Below are positions 55,208-60,629 of a DNA stretch of 64,000 nucleotides, one piece after another; within the stretch, counting starts at the first letter, position 1; every line of letters starts with the position of its first letter. This stretch comes from Enterobacteria phage Aplg8: sequence record NC_054902.1; one strand, 5' to 3'. Made by a program: the position numbers and the translations under genes. The notes beneath the pieces were generated by a model that saw nothing but the letters and a program-made list of their open reading frames with translations, did no database searches and was not told where the DNA came from.

Positions 55208-55681
55208 TTAAGCTTTACGAGGAGAAGCATAACGAGTGATTTCAGATTCTTCAACAACCCGGAAGTCACCTAAAAATACAATATTGTATAGCTTTTTACC
55301 GTCTTCAATCCATTGGTCTGTGATGAAGCCACACATCCTATCAGTTTTACTTGGACCAGCGAAATCATCAATATAATCGAATTCTTCATCAGTTACAAAT
55401 TCAACGCCTTTACACAACGCCCATTTAAATTGTGCATTAGACTCAGTGGATTCAACTTCTTCAACAGAAGCAAAATGAGAGCTAACACGAGTTTCCAGAA
55501 ATTTAGGACTTACGTAAGCGTACTGAGTTTCAGTTTTTCCAGAACTAGGAATGATTCGAACTTTAACTTCTATAACACGACCAGTACCATTAGTACGAAG
55601 TCCTACCACTTCAACTAGACGACCTGCAGCTTTAGAACGAGATGCAGACGATACACGCTTAATTTCACCGATAGTAATCAT
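55208..55681 (-). CDS. Tandem paralog 2 (157 aa) of a three-gene family
   Basis: N-terminal SSASRSKAAGRLVEV and C-terminal GFITDQWIEDGKKLYNIVFLGDFRVV. Confidence 0.5.
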   Translation of the reverse strand: MITIGEIKRVSSASRSKAAGRLVEVVGLRTNGTGRVIEVKVRIIPSSGKTETQYAYVSPKFLETRVSSHFASVEEVESTESNAQFKWALCKGVEFVTDEEFDYIDDFAGPSKTDRMCGFITDQWIEDGKKLYNIVFLGDFRVVEESEITRYASPRKA

Positions 55682-55753: not shown

Positions 55754-56248
55754 TTAATTAAGGATATTAATTACTGCACTACGTGGAACTACACTAAAAT
55801 CACCTGCATGAACAACGTTCAGAAGTTCAACACCGTCTTCAATCCACTGATCAGTTACCCATCCACTCACTGGACCTGCGAACGGACGTCGAATTGAAAC
55901 AGCTTTACACAACAAATCAGTAGGCTCAATAGGCTTAACCAGAGTACCGTACATACAAGCGATATCCATATCAATACAGATGTCTTTAACGGGTTCTACT
56001 TCTTCAATCAACAGTTCAAAGTCGGTGCTTGGAAGGGCGGTAGTAGAAATTGTACCGTATGAATTTTTAATTTCTAAGAATAACCAAGGGCCTTCAGCTT
56101 GTTTGATGAAGTTAACAATAGTGAAACTATTACCTTGAGTGGCGCCTAAAATTTCACAAAACTTTTCATAAGCTCGCACTGAAGCACCATACCAGTTGAT
56201 TTGCTTTTCGTCTTTCAGGATGTAAGTAGCTGTAGTACTGATATTCAT
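55754..56248 (-). CDS. Tandem paralog 3 (164 aa); possibly MotB-like by position
   Basis: C-terminal GWVTDQWIEDGVELLNVVHAGDFSVV shared with paralogs 1 and 2; lacks their N-terminal motif. Confidence 0.45.
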   Translation of the reverse strand: MNISTTATYILKDEKQINWYGASVRAYEKFCEILGATQGNSFTIVNFIKQAEGPWLFLEIKNSYGTISTTALPSTDFELLIEEVEPVKDICIDMDIACMYGTLVKPIEPTDLLCKAVSIRRPFAGPVSGWVTDQWIEDGVELLNVVHAGDFSVVPRSAVINILN

Positions 56249-56260
56249 GATGTTTTCCCC

Positions 56261-56803
56261 TTAATCTAAGGTAATAAAGCCTTTTAATTCGGCATGTGAC
56301 TTGCGGAACATTACTTGATGACCGCCAATGATAACTTGGTCATCAGGTACTTCGTATACAGCGAGATAAAATCCTTTAGAAGCTAATTCTTCACGCTCTT
56401 CTCGTGTGAACCATCTCATCATATCATATTCGCTAGCGAAAGCAAAATGATAAAGAGCTATAAACCATCCTGGAATATAGTGATCTACGCCTACATATTC
56501 TTCTTTCTCAAAATTAGTATTAATTGCTATATTAGCATTTTTAACTAATAATTTGTCTTCATGCGGCACAGGAATTCTTTTATTATCATTACTATGATGC
56601 ATAAAATTAGGTCTGTCATAACCTACGTGTAATAACCACTCTTCACTCCATGAATCTATTATACTCCTGTACGGAGTTATTTGAACACAAAGATCTCGAC
56701 GTATTGTTATAGCATCTTCATAATTAAGAATACTAAATGATGATTCAACACGATAAATTTTCATTTTATTATCCTCAGTAGCTATGGTGTTATAATACCA
56801 CAA
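56261..56803 (-). CDS. Hypothetical protein; probable start at MKIYRV (about 56764), 167 aa
   Basis: Internal Met has a GAGGATAA Shine-Dalgarno; the track start lies inside the upstream promoter. Confidence 0.45.
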   Translation of the reverse strand: MWYYNTIATEDNKMKIYRVESSFSILNYEDAITIRRDLCVQITPYRSIIDSWSEEWLLHVGYDRPNFMHHSNDNKRIPVPHEDKLLVKNANIAINTNFEKEEYVGVDHYIPGWFIALYHFAFASEYDMMRWFTREEREELASKGFYLAVYEVPDDQVIIGGHQVMFRKSHAELKGFITLD

Positions 56804-56821
56804 CTAACCGAGGAAGTAAAC
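56792..56821 (-). promoter_or_regulatory. Early promoter (GTTTAC-N18-TATTAT)
   Basis: Consensus elements on the minus strand. Confidence 0.5.
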
Positions 56822-56827
56822 AACTTT

Positions 56828-57511
56828 TTATCGTTTTGTTGGAAGAGACAGAGGATCGCACTCTTCCTCTGACGGAGCATCTTCAAGACCCATAGCGTAT
56901 CGCAAAGCATACTTCATCATCAGGATGTCTTTCGCACAGTCATGAATAGAATCATGCGCAACGAATCCATCTAAGGTTCCCTTTGGAAGAGGACATGTTG
57001 TCATATCACGAACAAGCAGAAGTGCTTCAATTCTGGTACGAATATCACGCTGATTCCAGAATTTACATGGTTCTAACTTAAATGTGTCAAGCTCATTCTC
57101 AGAAACACCATTAAGACGTTGAATATCACGAATGAGATCGACTAAAATTGGAAAATCAAACGACATTCCACGGCACCAGCCTTGAGATTTCCAAGGATCG
57201 ATATTATGTGCATTGATGTAATCATTAAATTTTGCAATACCGTCGATAGTGCTTACATCTTCATCGGATGGTGCAATATTTTTTCGAGCTTCAGGAGATT
57301 GATTTTTCCACCATTCGATAGTGCTTTTAGTAAAAAGACGATGTCCTTTTTGGCTTTTTAAATCAAATTTGATTTTAATGCCACGTGAAACTAATTCATC
57401 AAACGTTTCAACTACTTCTGGGTTAGGGTCAAAAGCAATTACAGCCAAATCAATAACAGCTGCTTTTTCACCGCTTCCCATTGTTTCAAAATCTATAATA
57501 AAATCAAACAT
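56828..57511 (-). CDS. dexA: Exonuclease A
   Basis: 227 aa as T4 DexA; N-terminal FDFIIDFETMG is DEDD-exonuclease-like; position upstream of dda. Confidence 0.8.
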   Translation of the reverse strand: MFDFIIDFETMGSGEKAAVIDLAVIAFDPNPEVVETFDELVSRGIKIKFDLKSQKGHRLFTKSTIEWWKNQSPEARKNIAPSDEDVSTIDGIAKFNDYINAHNIDPWKSQGWCRGMSFDFPILVDLIRDIQRLNGVSENELDTFKLEPCKFWNQRDIRTRIEALLLVRDMTTCPLPKGTLDGFVAHDSIHDCAKDILMMKYALRYAMGLEDAPSEEECDPLSLPTKR

Positions 57512-57786
57512 TAAATTTTCCTTGCTAAATCGCGAATTTGACCTACAGTATAATCTTGGATATAAACTTTATTAATAGGCTCATCAATAAATTTTGCCAT
57601 AGATTCAATATCTTTTTGCATCTCTTCAAGACTGTATATTATCTTTAAAGCTTTTTCGCGAATAGTAATATTTTCAGGACCAGAATTTTTCTCAATGACA
57701 GCTTTAACATTTGTCATAAGAGATTTAAACTGCTGCAAACTTAATTCAATCATTAATAACCGCCTTATAAAGATGGCTAATTTCAC
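57511..57786 (-). CDS. Small protein, 80-91 aa; member A of a three-gene tandem family
   Basis: Shares pattern QF..L...V.EI...LEE...D...V....I.DY..G.I..L with member B. Confidence 0.45.
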   Translation of the reverse strand: MKLAIFIRRLLMIELSLQQFKSLMTNVKAVIEKNSGPENITIREKALKIIYSLEEMQKDIESMAKFIDEPINKVYIQDYTVGQIRDLARKI

Positions 57787-58006
57787 CTAAAATGTAATCA
57801 CTGATTGTAACAGTTTTTACTTCACCACAAAAGAATTCTAACGCAATTAAATCTCGTTCAATTTCTTCTAATTGAAGCATTAACTTGCCAGATTCAATTT
57901 TTACATTTCTACGATTTTTACTATAAGCTATTTCATAAATTTCGCTCACTTTATCTTGAAGCAGATAAAACTGGTCTTTAGTTATTTCCACGAATAGCTT
58001 CCTCAA
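57746..58006 (-). CDS. Small protein, 86 aa; member B of the family
   Basis: Alignable with member A over its full length at about 25% identity. Confidence 0.45.
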   Translation of the reverse strand: MRKLFVEITKDQFYLLQDKVSEIYEIAYSKNRRNVKIESGKLMLQLEEIERDLIALEFFCGEVKTVTISDYILGEISHLYKAVIND

Positions 58007-58238
58007 ATTTAATTAGTAATTTACAGACACTTTCATCTAGTGTAATTACCGTATCTGTATTACTGTGATATGATTGTTTTTCAATTCGTTTAATTGCTAA
58101 TATAGTATCACTTATAAGATAAAGCTTATGAAGGAGCTCAGCTCCTGTTACCATAACATCGAGATTATCTTGCTTATTAGTATGCTTCCTTATACCATCT
58201 ATTAGACGATTTAAATATTTTGAATTGATGTTAATCAT
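57978..58238 (-). CDS. Small protein, 86 aa; member C of the family (more divergent)
   Basis: Similar size and weak C-terminal similarity (TVITLDESVCKLLIKFEEAI vs TVTISDYILGEISHLYKAV). Confidence 0.4.
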   Translation of the reverse strand: MININSKYLNRLIDGIRKHTNKQDNLDVMVTGAELLHKLYLISDTILAIKRIEKQSYHSNTDTVITLDESVCKLLIKFEEAIRGNN

Positions 58239-58244
58239 ATAGCC

Positions 58245-59564
58245 TCACACATAAAACACATCATAACGACCACGTGTTACACCAACATAAAGAAGTTGTT
58301 GAGCTAGTTCAGCATCTGCATAATGAATACAAGGCGTATAAATGAAAGCACGGTCTACAGACATACCCTGAGCTTTATGGAATGTTGATGCAGGAAGTGC
58401 TTTCACTTTACTAAACTGTGATTTAGCATCCCAAAAATCACTCCACGGAGCCTTTCCGCCTTTATTCCAATTTTTATAAGTTTCTGCCGTTTTACCTAAA
58501 AACAGGTTAAACTTATATAGCTCTTCATCAGATGAAATTATTTTAATCTTTTCACGATAATATTCATCATCGCCGTAAGTTTCTACTGTTAAATCCCAAT
58601 GACGAATTAAGTATTCTCCAGGAACACCACGAGCTTTAACAAACGTTGATGTATACTCTGCTTCTATAATACGAACTAATTGTCCATTATTAAAAATAAT
58701 TTCTGATACAGGCTTTCCATCAATTTTATATGTTTTAATTAATGGTTCCTGCATTACAATAATTTCACCAACAATAAAATCTTTATCAGTTTCAAAAATC
58801 TTTTTACGAATAATATTGTTTAACTTGTCAACAGATTTATTCGTAAATGCCATTACGCGATTTTCAAACAAATCATCTAGTGATTTGACGATTGAAAAAT
58901 AATTTACCATAAAATCGCGTAAAGCGGTATCACCAGTAAATCCACGTACTCCATGCCCGTCAACAACTTTATCATAAATCCACTTACCGTTACGAACGTC
59001 AGTAGCTACATCAATAATAGGAGCATTACTGCGTTTAACTTCAGTGAGTTCACACTGATAAAAATCTTTATGCGTAAAGAATGGACTGATATAAGCAGTA
59101 TTTTCTCCTGGGTCAACAGGTCTAATTTGCTTATTATCACCTATTCCAATTATAGTACACCACGGCGGGATAGTTGAAAGCAGAATTTTAAATAGCTTTC
59201 TATCATACATTGACACTTCATCGCAGATTAATACTCTGCATTTAGCTAAATCTGGTACTTCCTTCTGCTCAAAGAGGACATTTTCTTCATATGTTACCGG
59301 GTTAATTTTGAGAATACTGTGAATAGTACTCGCTTCTTTCCCTGATAGTTTTGAAAGAATCTTTTTAGCTGCATGAGTAGGAGCTGCTAAAATAATGCCA
59401 GTTTCGCCCGTAGATATTAAGGCTTCAATGATGAACTTAGTAAGAGTAGTCTTACCAGTACCAGCAGGTCCATTAATAGTTACATGATGTTTCTTTTCTT
59501 TAATAGCCCTCATAACAATGTTAAAGGCATTTTTCTGGCCTTCAGTCAAATCATCAAATGTCAT
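58245..59564 (-). CDS. dda: Dda DNA helicase (superfamily 1)
   Basis: 439 aa as T4 Dda; Walker A GPAGTGKTT; start MTFDDLTEGQKNAFNIV. Confidence 0.9.
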   Translation of the reverse strand: MTFDDLTEGQKNAFNIVMRAIKEKKHHVTINGPAGTGKTTLTKFIIEALISTGETGIILAAPTHAAKKILSKLSGKEASTIHSILKINPVTYEENVLFEQKEVPDLAKCRVLICDEVSMYDRKLFKILLSTIPPWCTIIGIGDNKQIRPVDPGENTAYISPFFTHKDFYQCELTEVKRSNAPIIDVATDVRNGKWIYDKVVDGHGVRGFTGDTALRDFMVNYFSIVKSLDDLFENRVMAFTNKSVDKLNNIIRKKIFETDKDFIVGEIIVMQEPLIKTYKIDGKPVSEIIFNNGQLVRIIEAEYTSTFVKARGVPGEYLIRHWDLTVETYGDDEYYREKIKIISSDEELYKFNLFLGKTAETYKNWNKGGKAPWSDFWDAKSQFSKVKALPASTFHKAQGMSVDRAFIYTPCIHYADAELAQQLLYVGVTRGRYDVFYV

Positions 59565-59872
59565 CGTAAATTCCCTGCAATTGGTATACTAACAATACGC
59601 CCAGTATCTAAAATTCGCCGATATAATCTTTGTGTGTCTACATCAGGCTTAACATGTTTAACTTCTATTTTATTAAACCAAAACTTGCGTGGAGTCTCAA
59701 CTAATCTTGGAATTCCCTTACCTAAAGCTAATCGATACTGCTCTTTAAGAGTAGTAAATACTTTATCAGCAATATTCCATTCAAAAAATACAGCAGGACG
59801 ATGTTCATCAAGCGGAACTGGCGCCGTAAATCCGTCTTTGTCTCGGTAAACTATCGCATATACATAAACCAT
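59561..59872 (-). CDS. Hypothetical protein, 103 aa (dda.1 position)
   Basis: ORF overlapping the dda start by 4 nt. Confidence 0.45.
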   Translation of the reverse strand: MVYVYAIVYRDKDGFTAPVPLDEHRPAVFFEWNIADKVFTTLKEQYRLALGKGIPRLVETPRKFWFNKIEVKHVKPDVDTQRLYRRILDTGRIVSIPIAGNLR

Positions 59873-59873
59873 A

Positions 59874-60629
59874 TTATCCTCGGATAAGTTTAAAAATTGA
59901 ACAATTTAGCGGGTATCCTCTTTTCAGTTTAAGTTTATCAATAAAAGACAAGTTTTGATACCGCTCTACACCTTGAATAATTTTATCACACATATCATAT
60001 TGCATTTCTGCTTCTGACAACTTTTTCACAATTTTCCAATCCGAGCCTTTAAGAAGAACGTTCAGTTTAACAACTTCAGCGCCTTCTGCTATGCGAGAAC
60101 CATCAATACGAGCTTTAAGTGCTATAATTCTTAGCTTAATGTCAGAGGTCTGTTTTGATTTAGAAAGCTGAGAAATGTGTTCAATTCGGTTTTCACGTTT
60201 TTTCTGTATAGCTTTAATTTGATTATAAGTCTTTTTGATTTTAGCCCATTTCTTTTCATCTAAATTTAGTTTATGAACTTTTTTCGCAGATGAACGACCA
60301 ATTCGCAAAGCAAACAAATCACGTTTTTCAATTAACTCCTCTAAAGTATAATCAGAACGAAATGTATTATACTTTTTCTTTACTGCAATAACATTCCCTT
60401 TAATGTATCCAACGTTATTATCAAAACGTTCTAATGATAATTTCTCTCCTTCAATACGATTATCAAAAGGTTCTCCCGAGTAAGCACAAACTTTTTGATC
60501 TAAAATGTTCTTAATGTAATTGAAGTCTAAGTTAAAATCTTTAGAACGTCTTTTTGCAGATGCCTGAGTATGCTCTAAACGACGTTTAATTTTACGAATT
60601 TGGTTATTAGACATATTATGCAGTTTCAT
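59874..60629 (-). CDS. srd: Srd-like protein, 251 aa
   Basis: Length and position (dda-srd-modA) as in T4; basic and coiled-coil rich; identity by synteny. Confidence 0.5.
   Translation of the reverse strand: MKLHNMSNNQIRKIKRRLEHTQASAKRRSKDFNLDFNYIKNILDQKVCAYSGEPFDNRIEGEKLSLERFDNNVGYIKGNVIAVKKKYNTFRSDYTLEELIEKRDLFALRIGRSSAKKVHKLNLDEKKWAKIKKTYNQIKAIQKKRENRIEHISQLSKSKQTSDIKLRIIALKARIDGSRIAEGAEVVKLNVLLKGSDWKIVKKLSEAEMQYDMCDKIIQGVERYQNLSFIDKLKLKRGYPLNCSIFKLIRG

What the first reader, a model, noticed from the sequence alone, without database searches (positions are those of the whole stretch)
57511..58238. Three tandem small paralogs (80-91 aa) between dexA and dda
Three overlapping small ORFs fill the dexA-dda interval. 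Members A and B align along their length at about 25% identity, and C is a more distant member of similar size. As I recall the T4 map, dda follows dexA without such an array, so this looks like a lineage-specific expansion.
Basis: partly seen in the sequence, partly recalled or inferred. Interest (0 to 1): 0.45.

Follow-up and report, generated by a model that had tools for sequence, protein, structure and literature searches.

The report
Three DexA.1/DexA.2-family small phage genes
The three small genes between the dexA and dda genes of this T4-like phage are real, anciently diverged copies of one small helical protein of unknown function; two are the annotated T4 genes dexA.1 and dexA.2, and the third is a copy that T4 itself has deleted, so the finding is mostly ordinary.

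Summary
The window comes from a Tequatrovirus, 98% identical to Shigella phage Sf24.

**What the ORFs are**
- The three minus-strand ORFs exist at the stated coordinates.
- A (57511-57753, 80 aa) is DexA.1.
- B (57746-57991, 81 aa) is DexA.2.
- C (57978-58238, 86 aa) is a third gene, annotated only as "hypothetical".

T4 does carry dexA.1 and dexA.2 between dexA and dda. It lacks only C. A clean 232-bp deletion removed it and left C's last 35 nt in place.

**Paralogy**
- A and B align at 25% identity over 75 columns (hhalign E = 3e-6). Pfam PF26837 and phrog_1700 already unite them.
- C is a more distant member. It scores 24 bits against a profile built only from other genera, against at most 10.4 bits for 2000 shuffles.
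- B and C have the same predicted strand-helix-helix-strand-helix fold (pLDDT 94 and 88).

**Distribution.** Other Tevenvirinae genera carry 0-2 copies in the same slot.

**Selection.** All three evolve under purifying selection (dN/dS 0.09-0.21). Their protein sequences still change 5-50 times faster, by dN/dS, than dexA and dda.

**Function.** Only hydrophobic core residues are conserved, so these are not enzymes. Knockdown of dexA.1 or dexA.2 in T4 has no fitness effect. The most likely role is a dispensable, fast-evolving protein-binding modulator. The function remains unknown.

The parts
57511..57753 (-). Member A = dexA.1 ortholog (80 aa, ATG at 57753). An alternative upstream GTG at 57786 would give 91 aa.
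   Evidence: 88% identical to T4 DexA.1. Near-identical homologs carry Pfam PF26837 Phage_T4_Y00H_G. Hits phrog_1700 at 4.8e-42. dN/dS is 0.21.
57746..57991 (-). Member B = dexA.2 ortholog (81 aa, GTG at 57991 after the Shine-Dalgarno sequence GAGGAAG). An alternative TTG at 58006 would give 86 aa.
   Evidence: 90% identical to T4 DexA.2. Homologs carry PF26837. The AlphaFold2 model has pLDDT 93.7 and pTM 0.80, with a strand-helix-helix-strand-helix topology. dN/dS is 0.09. The T4 protein was detected by mass spectrometry (PMC10097602).
57978..58238 (-). Member C = third, divergent paralog (86 aa). Absent from T4 and T2. Annotated as RB14ncORF015c or 'hypothetical protein' in other Tequatroviruses.
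   Evidence: Hits phrog_4967 at 8e-59 and phrog_5263 at 1.8e-5. Scores 24.3 bits against an outgroup-only family HMM, versus at most 10.4 bits for shuffles. AlphaFold2 pLDDT 87.7 with the same topology as B. Foldseek hits DexA.2 and the same set of T4-like small proteins as B does. dN/dS is 0.18. Present in 307 phage records.
56828..57511 (-). dexA (exonuclease A, 227 aa), the downstream flank. Its ATG overlaps A's stop codon by 1 nt.
   Evidence: Pfam Rv2179c-like at 2.4e-22 and phrog_255. dN/dS is 0.004.
58245..59564 (-). dda (Dda helicase, 439 aa), the upstream flank. Its stop codon lies 6 nt before C's ATG.
   Evidence: Pfam Dda SH3 domain at 2.8e-70, AAA_19 and AAA_30. dN/dS is 0.016.
59561..59872 (-). 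dda.1 (103 aa), the first gene of the transcription unit described in T4 as dda.1-dda-dexA.2-dexA.1.
   Evidence: Pfam Phage_Y01A at 1.6e-23. The T4 transcription start and polycistronic unit are reported in bioRxiv 10.1101/2024.04.04.588121.

Best explanation
The interval holds three anciently diverged paralogs of one Tevenvirinae-specific family of ~9-10 kDa proteins. In Pfam this is PF26837, Phage_T4_Y00H_G, which covers T4 DexA.1 and DexA.2. The family's home is the slot between dda and dexA.

Shown:
- A is DexA.1, B is DexA.2, and C is a third member that T4 and T2 deleted.
- B and C are each predicted to fold as a short N-terminal strand, two long antiparallel helices, a second short strand pairing with the first, and a third helix. 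This is a capped three-helix bundle. A was not modelled; it aligns with B over its full length.
- All three are under purifying selection but evolve much faster than their neighbours.
- Copy number varies from 0 to 3 among related phages.

Inferred mechanism:
- The genes are probably made before DNA replication from the dda.1-dda-C-B-A(-dexA) message, with translational coupling.
- They most likely act without catalysis, as small binding proteins that modulate a host factor or host defence factor.
- The conserved hydrophobic core keeps the scaffold. The variable surface, especially the helix1-helix2 hairpin tip, would set target specificity.
- Duplication, divergence and loss would track what the phage meets in its hosts.
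- They are accessory genes, dispensable on laboratory E. coli.
For: Identity and paralogy.

Fold:
- AlphaFold2 gives pLDDT 93.7 for B and 87.7 for C, with the same element order.
- Foldseek against BFVD with either model returns the same set of ~76-92-aa uncharacterised proteins from T4-like phages: Cronus, fHe-Yen9-01, CC31, Henu6, Aeh1.

Not an enzyme:
- No Pfam or NCBIfam domain is found.
- The conserved family columns are almost all hydrophobic core positions, plus one acidic helix-cap residue and a loop Gly/Pro.

Real genes that evolve fast:
- dN/dS is 0.21, 0.09 and 0.18 for A, B and C. It is 0.004 for dexA and 0.016 for dda.
- Within Tequatrovirus, variation clusters at residues ~13-35, the end of helix 1 and the start of helix 2.

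Dispensable with frequent turnover:
- C is deleted in T4 and T2 and frameshifted in RB14.
- The family is absent from RB69 and PSTCR6.
- dexA.1 and dexA.2 knockdowns are scored 'Not Fit' in the genome-wide T4 CRISPRi-ART screen (PMC11879866 supplement).

Expression:
- DexA.2 protein was detected in T4-infected cells (PMC10097602).
- dda.1 to dexA.1 forms one transcript.
Against: - No binding partner, phenotype or toxicity is known for any member, so the mechanism is inferred from general properties only.
- The fixed position between dda and dexA in at least 9 genera could instead point to a link with those enzymes.
- dN/dS is well below 1, so there is no direct sign of positive (arms-race) selection. 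Faster evolution may simply reflect weak constraint on a small helical protein.
- Expression of C has not been shown.
- The alignments used for the AlphaFold models contained all three paralogs, so the two models are not fully independent.
Confidence: 0.45

Rival explanations
1. The proteins are accessory or regulatory partners of the flanking enzymes. They would bind Dda helicase or DexA exonuclease, or bridge the two, and tune activity or localisation in replication, recombination or host-DNA breakdown.
For: - A family member sits between dda and dexA in Tequatro-, Dhaka-, Gapriver-, Kanagawa-, Winkler-, Teguna-, Jiaoda-, Gelderland- and Karamvirus.
- Start and stop codons overlap with dexA.
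- The genes share a transcript with dda.
- The strand2-helix3 end of the fold is the most conserved part.
Against: - RB69 and Providencia phage PSTCR6 keep intact, adjacent dda and dexA with no family member.
- Dda and DexA are almost invariant (dN/dS 0.016 and 0.004), yet the small proteins share only ~25-40% identity between genera and have no conserved surface residues. An interface with so conserved a partner should be conserved.
- From established knowledge, purified Dda and DexA are active on their own.
- Synteny in T4-like early regions is often inherited rather than functional.
Confidence: 0.2
2. The array is a recent, lineage-specific tandem duplication in this phage's lineage.
For: Three adjacent same-strand ORFs of similar size. 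Most other genera have a single copy.
Against: - There is no nucleotide repeat in the interval.
- A and B share only 25% identity. C is detectable only by profile.
- A clusters with the Dhakavirus single copy rather than with B.
- T4 has A and B and carries a remnant of C.
- The same three genes occur in about 307 phage records.
Confidence: 0.03
3. One or more of the ORFs, C especially, is a non-functional or decaying reading frame rather than a gene.
For: - C is deleted in T4 and T2 and frameshifted in RB14.
- C has no Pfam family.
- There is no expression evidence for C.
Against: - C has dN/dS 0.18 across 7 genomes and an intact frame in all seven used for the estimate.
- It has a good Shine-Dalgarno sequence.
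- Its fold is predicted with confidence.
- It has significant profile and PHROG matches.
- It is conserved at 92-100% identity in 307 records.
Confidence: 0.05

Closest known systems
T4 DexA.1 and DexA.2 (UniProt Y00G/Y00H; Pfam PF26837 Phage_T4_Y00H_G; phrog_1700)
   Same: A and B are their orthologs at 88% and 90% identity. Length, position and gene overlaps all match. Function is unknown for all of them.
   Different: Nothing material differs for A and B. C is not recognised by PF26837 or phrog_1700 and is only a distant relative.
RB14ncORF015c / RB51 'RB14ncORF017c' (phrog_4967), a hypothetical protein between dda and dexA.2 in many Tequatroviruses
   Same: C is this gene, at 92-100% identity in 307 records.
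   Different: In RB14 the gene carries an 8-nt indel and is annotated as a 58-aa fragment. In this window it is intact.
Single-copy dda-dexA interval proteins of other Tevenvirinae genera (e.g. VR5 gp014, VR7 'DexA.2', CC31 E5DI27; phrog_5263)
   Same: Same slot, same size (76-84 aa) and same family by HMM and structure.
   Different: These genera carry one copy (two in TG1) rather than three. Most form a distinct subgroup with an 'A-I-x-W-F-T-G' motif at the end of helix 2 (100% bootstrap).
[not shown]
   Same: Overall helical bundle geometry.
Small non-enzymatic T4 pre-replicative modulators such as AsiA, Arn and Srd (comparison from general knowledge, not tested here)
   Same: Small size, expression before replication, dispensability on laboratory hosts, and action by binding rather than catalysis. 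For this family the last point is inferred.
   Different: No sequence or fold match to any of them appeared in the top 50 BFVD hits. No target is known.

Membership tests
Pfam PF26837 Phage_T4_Y00H_G (DexA.1/DexA.2 family) | Sequence match to the family model | tested here: inconclusive
   Near-identical homologs of A and B all carry the precomputed PF26837 hit. The model is missing from the local Pfam copy, so the window proteins could not be scored directly. Homologs of C have no Pfam hit.
Pfam PF26837 Phage_T4_Y00H_G (DexA.1/DexA.2 family) | Orthology of A and B to T4 DexA.1 and DexA.2 | tested here: met
   88% and 90% identity over the full length, with the same order and overlaps.
Wider dda-dexA interval small-protein family (this analysis; phrog_1700 + phrog_5263 + phrog_4967) | Significant score against a profile built without the sequence under test | tested here: met
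   An HMM built only from outgroup genera scores A at 43.4, B at 42.7 and C at 24.3 bits. The maximum over 2000 shuffles of C is 10.4 bits. All three hit phrog_5263, at E = 0.017, 3e-8 and 1.8e-5.
Wider dda-dexA interval small-protein family (this analysis; phrog_1700 + phrog_5263 + phrog_4967) | Shared strand-helix-helix-strand-helix fold of about 80 aa | tested here: met
   AlphaFold2 models of B and C have the same element order. C's model hits DexA.2 of BECP11 (TM 0.68/0.71, probability 1.00) and the same T4-like proteins as B's model.
Wider dda-dexA interval small-protein family (this analysis; phrog_1700 + phrog_5263 + phrog_4967) | Location between dda and dexA on the same strand | tested here: met
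Exonuclease or dextranase (the names attached to DexA.1/DexA.2 in many GenBank and RefSeq records) | A nuclease or glycoside-hydrolase domain, or conserved catalytic residues | tested here: not met
   No such domain appears in Pfam or NCBIfam. The proteins are 80-86 aa helical bundles. Conserved columns are hydrophobic. The names look like propagation from the neighbouring gene name dexA.
Phage anti-defence or host-takeover inhibitor proteins | A demonstrated host or defence target, or a protection phenotype | not testable with these tools
   Only indirect evidence exists. The genes are dispensable, evolve fast and turn over in copy number. DexA.2 was found conjugated to cGAS by CBASS Cap2.

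The most novel reading that the evidence does not exclude
The family could be a diversifying set of counter-defence proteins, and DexA.2 might interact directly with the type II CBASS machinery. It is one of only two T4 proteins found covalently conjugated to cGAS by Cap2, at Lys5 (PMC10097602). On this reading the paralogs would act as decoy substrates or inhibitors of ubiquitin-like conjugation or of another immune sensor. Presence or absence of C would then alter host range among Tequatroviruses.
Probability: 0.07. Interest if true: 0.7.

Novelty: new member of a known kind. Interest (0 to 1): 0.2.

Why it matters
The practical value is mostly in tidying up annotation.
- It corrects the idea that T4 lacks genes between dexA and dda.
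- It shows that the widespread 'hypothetical' 86-aa gene next to dda is a divergent third member of the DexA.1/DexA.2 family, and that the T4 and T2 reference genomes lost it by deletion.
- It flags the 'dextranase' and 'exonuclease' labels on these proteins as unfounded.

Biologically, the slot is a small example of birth-and-death evolution of a fast-evolving accessory protein in T-even phages. It would become interesting only if a host or defence target were found.

Tried and rejected
- **Direct profile comparison of C with A or B.** hhalign on shallow family alignments found nothing (E = 0.16-0.21). The link appeared only with a profile from other genera.
- **Word-indexed protein searches.** These returned only relatives at 70% identity or above, so no deep alignments could be built.
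- **Full HMMER scan.** The A+B+C profile against 1.84 billion representatives gave only 11 hits. All were T-even-like except P0110, a 1903-aa protein with 17 matched stretches whose sequence I did not inspect; I took it to be a low-complexity or coiled-coil artefact.
- **PDB by sequence.** The only hit was a 15-residue match to a dockerin (E = 0.0024), judged to be chance.
- **AFDB50 fold search.** The library was unavailable.
- **IMG/VR scan with C.** It gave only 2 loci.
- **Krischvirus, Lazarusvirus and Aeh1.** Small ORFs sit near dexA, but none scores with the family HMM. There is also no fourth copy anywhere in the 64-kb window.
- **Rfam and repeat scans of the interval.** Nothing relevant.
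- **Promoter scan.** Counts did not exceed the shuffled expectation (28 found versus 22.4 ± 4.8), and no strong minus-strand promoter lies inside the array.
- **Literature.** Only two papers mention these genes in their text. Miller et al. 2003 is not held.

Full report
**Source and gene map**

A 2.8-kb stretch spanning dexA to dda (56800-59600) is 97-98% identical to many Tequatrovirus genomes. The best match is Shigella phage Sf24, and 494 records cover at least 80% of the query.

All genes in this region lie on the minus strand:

| Gene | Coordinates | Evidence |
|---|---|---|
| dexA | 56828-57511 | Rv2179c-like exonuclease domain |
| Three small ORFs | 57511-58238 | see below |
| dda | 58245-59564 | Dda SH3 domain, E = 2.8e-70 |
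| dda.1 | 59561-59872 | Pfam Phage_Y01A |
| srd | 59874-60629 | phrog_1400 |

The three ORFs are there. The longest mechanical frames for A (91 aa, GTG) and B (86 aa, TTG) over-extend. The T4 annotation, the upstream Shine-Dalgarno sequences and the family alignment all point to shorter forms:
- A starts at the ATG at 57753 (80 aa).
- B starts at the GTG at 57991 (81 aa, preceded by GAGGAAG).
- C starts at the ATG at 58238 (86 aa, preceded by GAGG).

The genes are tightly packed, which fits translational coupling. There is a 6-nt gap from dda to C, a 14-nt C/B overlap, an 8-nt B/A overlap and a 1-nt A/dexA overlap.

**Comparison with T4**

NC_000866 annotates dexA.1 (80 aa) and dexA.2 (81 aa) between dexA and dda. 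A is 88% identical to DexA.1 and B is 90% identical to DexA.2.

What T4 lacks is C. A DNA alignment shows a single clean 232-bp gap in T4. It begins just after the dda stop codon and ends 35 nt before C's stop codon. Those last 35 nt of C carry the ribosome-binding site and start of dexA.2, and T4 keeps them at 100% identity. The breakpoints lie in a short ATTAA-type microhomology, as read from the alignment. T2 has the same deletion.

So three genes is the older state in Tequatrovirus, and T4 and T2 are the derived, reduced state.

Counts and other forms of decay:
- C is found in 307 phage records at 92-100% identity.
- DexA.2 is found in about 495 records at 80% identity or above.
- In RB14, C carries an 8-nt indel and is annotated as a 58-aa fragment.
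- In phage sb1, C has a premature stop. That record also has a fragmented dda, so assembly quality is doubtful.

**Are they paralogs?**

- **A versus B: yes.** They share 25% identity over 75 columns (hhalign E = 3.1e-6, probability 88%). This relationship is already on record. Homologs of both carry Pfam PF26837, Phage_T4_Y00H_G, and both fall in phrog_1700 (PMC11879866 supplement).
- **C versus A or B: not directly.** Pairwise and shallow-profile comparisons find nothing. C has its own PHROG (phrog_4967) and no Pfam family.

Three independent lines still place C in the same family:
1. All three ORFs hit phrog_5263, at E = 0.017, 3e-8 and 1.8e-5.
2. An HMM built only from the proteins in the same slot in eight other genera, with no Tequatrovirus sequence, scores C at 24.3 bits. 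The maximum over 2000 shuffles of C is 10.4 bits. A and B score 43 bits.
3. The AlphaFold2 models agree. B (pLDDT 93.7, pTM 0.80) and C (pLDDT 87.7, pTM 0.76) have the same order of elements: strand 2-4/2-5, helix to about residue 22, a long helix to about residue 55, a second short strand, and a C-terminal helix.

Foldseek searches of BFVD with either model return the same set of 76-92-aa uncharacterised proteins from T4-like phages. C's model also hits DexA.2 of phage BECP11 (TM 0.68/0.71).

One caveat applies. The alignments fed to AlphaFold contained all three paralogs, so the two models are not fully independent. Even so, C's C-terminal half was misaligned in that input, and it still folded into the matching strand-helix unit.

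**Distribution and history**

Copy number in the dda-dexA slot:

| Copies | Phage (genus) |
|---|---|
| 0 | RB69 (Mosigvirus); Providencia PSTCR6 |
| 1 | VR5 (Dhakavirus), VR7 (Gaprivervirus), IME523 (Kanagawavirus), X20 (Winklervirus), ValerieMcCarty01 (Jiaodavirus), CF-SP2 (Gelderlandvirus), EnC15 (Karamvirus) |
| 2 | TG1 (Tegunavirus); T4; T2 |
| 3 | This window and about 60% of Tequatrovirus records |

Krischvirus, Lazarusvirus and Aeh1 have other small ORFs near dexA that the family HMM does not recognise. The 64-kb window holds no fourth copy.

A full HMMER scan of 1.84 billion representative proteins found only 11 matches, essentially all T-even-like. The family is therefore narrow at the sequence level.

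A neighbour-joining tree gives:
- A grouped with the single Dhakavirus protein (81% bootstrap), with B as their sister (90%).
- A well-supported 'WFTG-motif' clade for six other genera (100%).
- C weakly grouped with the second TG1 copy and the Kanagawavirus protein (51%).

No nucleotide repeat exists in the interval. The picture is one of old duplications followed by differential loss (birth-and-death evolution), not a recent expansion.

**Selection**

Nei-Gojobori estimates across 7-10 Tequatrovirus genomes, all at similar dS:

| Gene | dN/dS |
|---|---|
| dexA | 0.004 |
| dda | 0.016 |
| dda.1 | 0.15 |
| A | 0.21 |
| B | 0.09 |
| C | 0.18 |

The three are real genes under purifying selection. 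Their proteins nonetheless change roughly 5-50 times faster, by dN/dS, than the flanking enzymes. Within Tequatrovirus the substitutions cluster around residues 13-35, at the end of helix 1 and the start of helix 2. The strand2-helix3 region is nearly invariant.

**What they do**

No function is known. These points narrow the options:
- No Pfam or NCBIfam domain is found.
- PDB sequence search gives only a short chance match to a dockerin.
- Across the family, the conserved columns are hydrophobic core positions, one acidic helix-cap residue and a loop Gly/Pro. No polar constellation would suit catalysis.
- Most members are acidic (pI 4.2-4.8). A (6.25) and C (7.9) are exceptions.

Published data add three points:
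- In T4 the genes lie on one transcript running from dda.1 to dexA.1 (bioRxiv 10.1101/2024.04.04.588121).
- DexA.2 protein is made. It was one of two T4 proteins found conjugated to cGAS by CBASS Cap2 (PMC10097602).
- In the genome-wide CRISPRi-ART screen of T4, knockdown of dexA.1 or dexA.2 had no fitness effect. The same was true for dexA, dda, dda.1 and srd (PMC11879866 supplement).

My best reading, which is inference, is that these are dispensable, non-catalytic binding proteins made before replication. They would modulate a host factor or host defence factor, with the scaffold conserved and the surface free to diverge.

The main rival is a role as partners of Dda or DexA, suggested by the fixed position. 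Two findings count against it. RB69 and PSTCR6 keep both enzymes without any family member. And the small proteins have no conserved surface, even though the enzymes are almost invariant.

**Novelty**

- A and B are known, annotated T4 genes already joined in one Pfam and one PHROG family.
- C is a known 'hypothetical' gene. Its membership of that family, and its loss from T4 and T2 by deletion, are small new points.
- The 'dextranase' and 'exonuclease' product names attached to these proteins in many records have no support.

Overall this is a correct observation with a partly wrong interpretation, and it is of low to modest interest.

Noticed in passing
window 57978-58238 versus T4 (L001 2889-2911) and T2 (L004): T4 and T2 carry an identical 232-bp deletion of gene C, with breakpoints in an ATTAA-type microhomology. 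It leaves C's last 35 nt as the dexA.2 ribosome-binding region. RB14 (L020) instead has an 8-nt indel that frameshifts C.
   Followed up: yes
L024 2461-2940 (phage ime09); corresponds to window 57511-57991: In ime09 a 1-nt deletion in the B/A overlap (GGTTATTAATG becomes GGTTTTAATG) fuses DexA.2 and DexA.1 into one 159-aa protein (UniProt G1FHL1). This probably explains the 160-position phrog_1700 profile. It may be a true fusion or a sequencing error, and I did not check how many genomes share it.
   Followed up: partly
window 57511-57991; public records listed: DexA.2 is named 'dextranase' in RefSeq, and DexA.1 and DexA.2 are named 'exonuclease' in many GenBank records. The names appear to be propagated from the gene name dexA. 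No domain or conserved residue supports either one.
   Followed up: yes
window 55208-55681 and 55754-56248 (minus strand): Two adjacent ORFs of 157 and 164 aa share a C-terminal motif (FAGP...TDQWIEDG...GDF.VV; 52% identity over 42 aa, E = 7e-12). They fall in the MotB-like phrog_1671 and in phrog_2333 (the T4 MotB.1 family). This is another nearby pair of diverged paralogs. The region upstream of dexA differs in gene content from T4.
   Followed up: partly
window 59874-60629 (srd, minus strand): Besides the Srd family (phrog_1400), the N-terminal ~100-160 residues of Srd match endonuclease, HNH-endonuclease and endonuclease VII PHROGs (E = 8e-19, 1e-16 and 2e-7).
   Followed up: no
window 56006-56099 (minus strand): There is a sub-threshold Rfam match to Y RNA (27.3 bits against a gathering score of 38, E = 0.02) inside the MotB.1-like ORF. 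It is most likely chance.
   Followed up: no
protein P0028: A DexA.2 homolog at 89% identity is deposited as a partial 'Enterococcus faecalis' protein on a 2.2-kb contig. This is probably T4-like phage contamination of that assembly.
   Followed up: no
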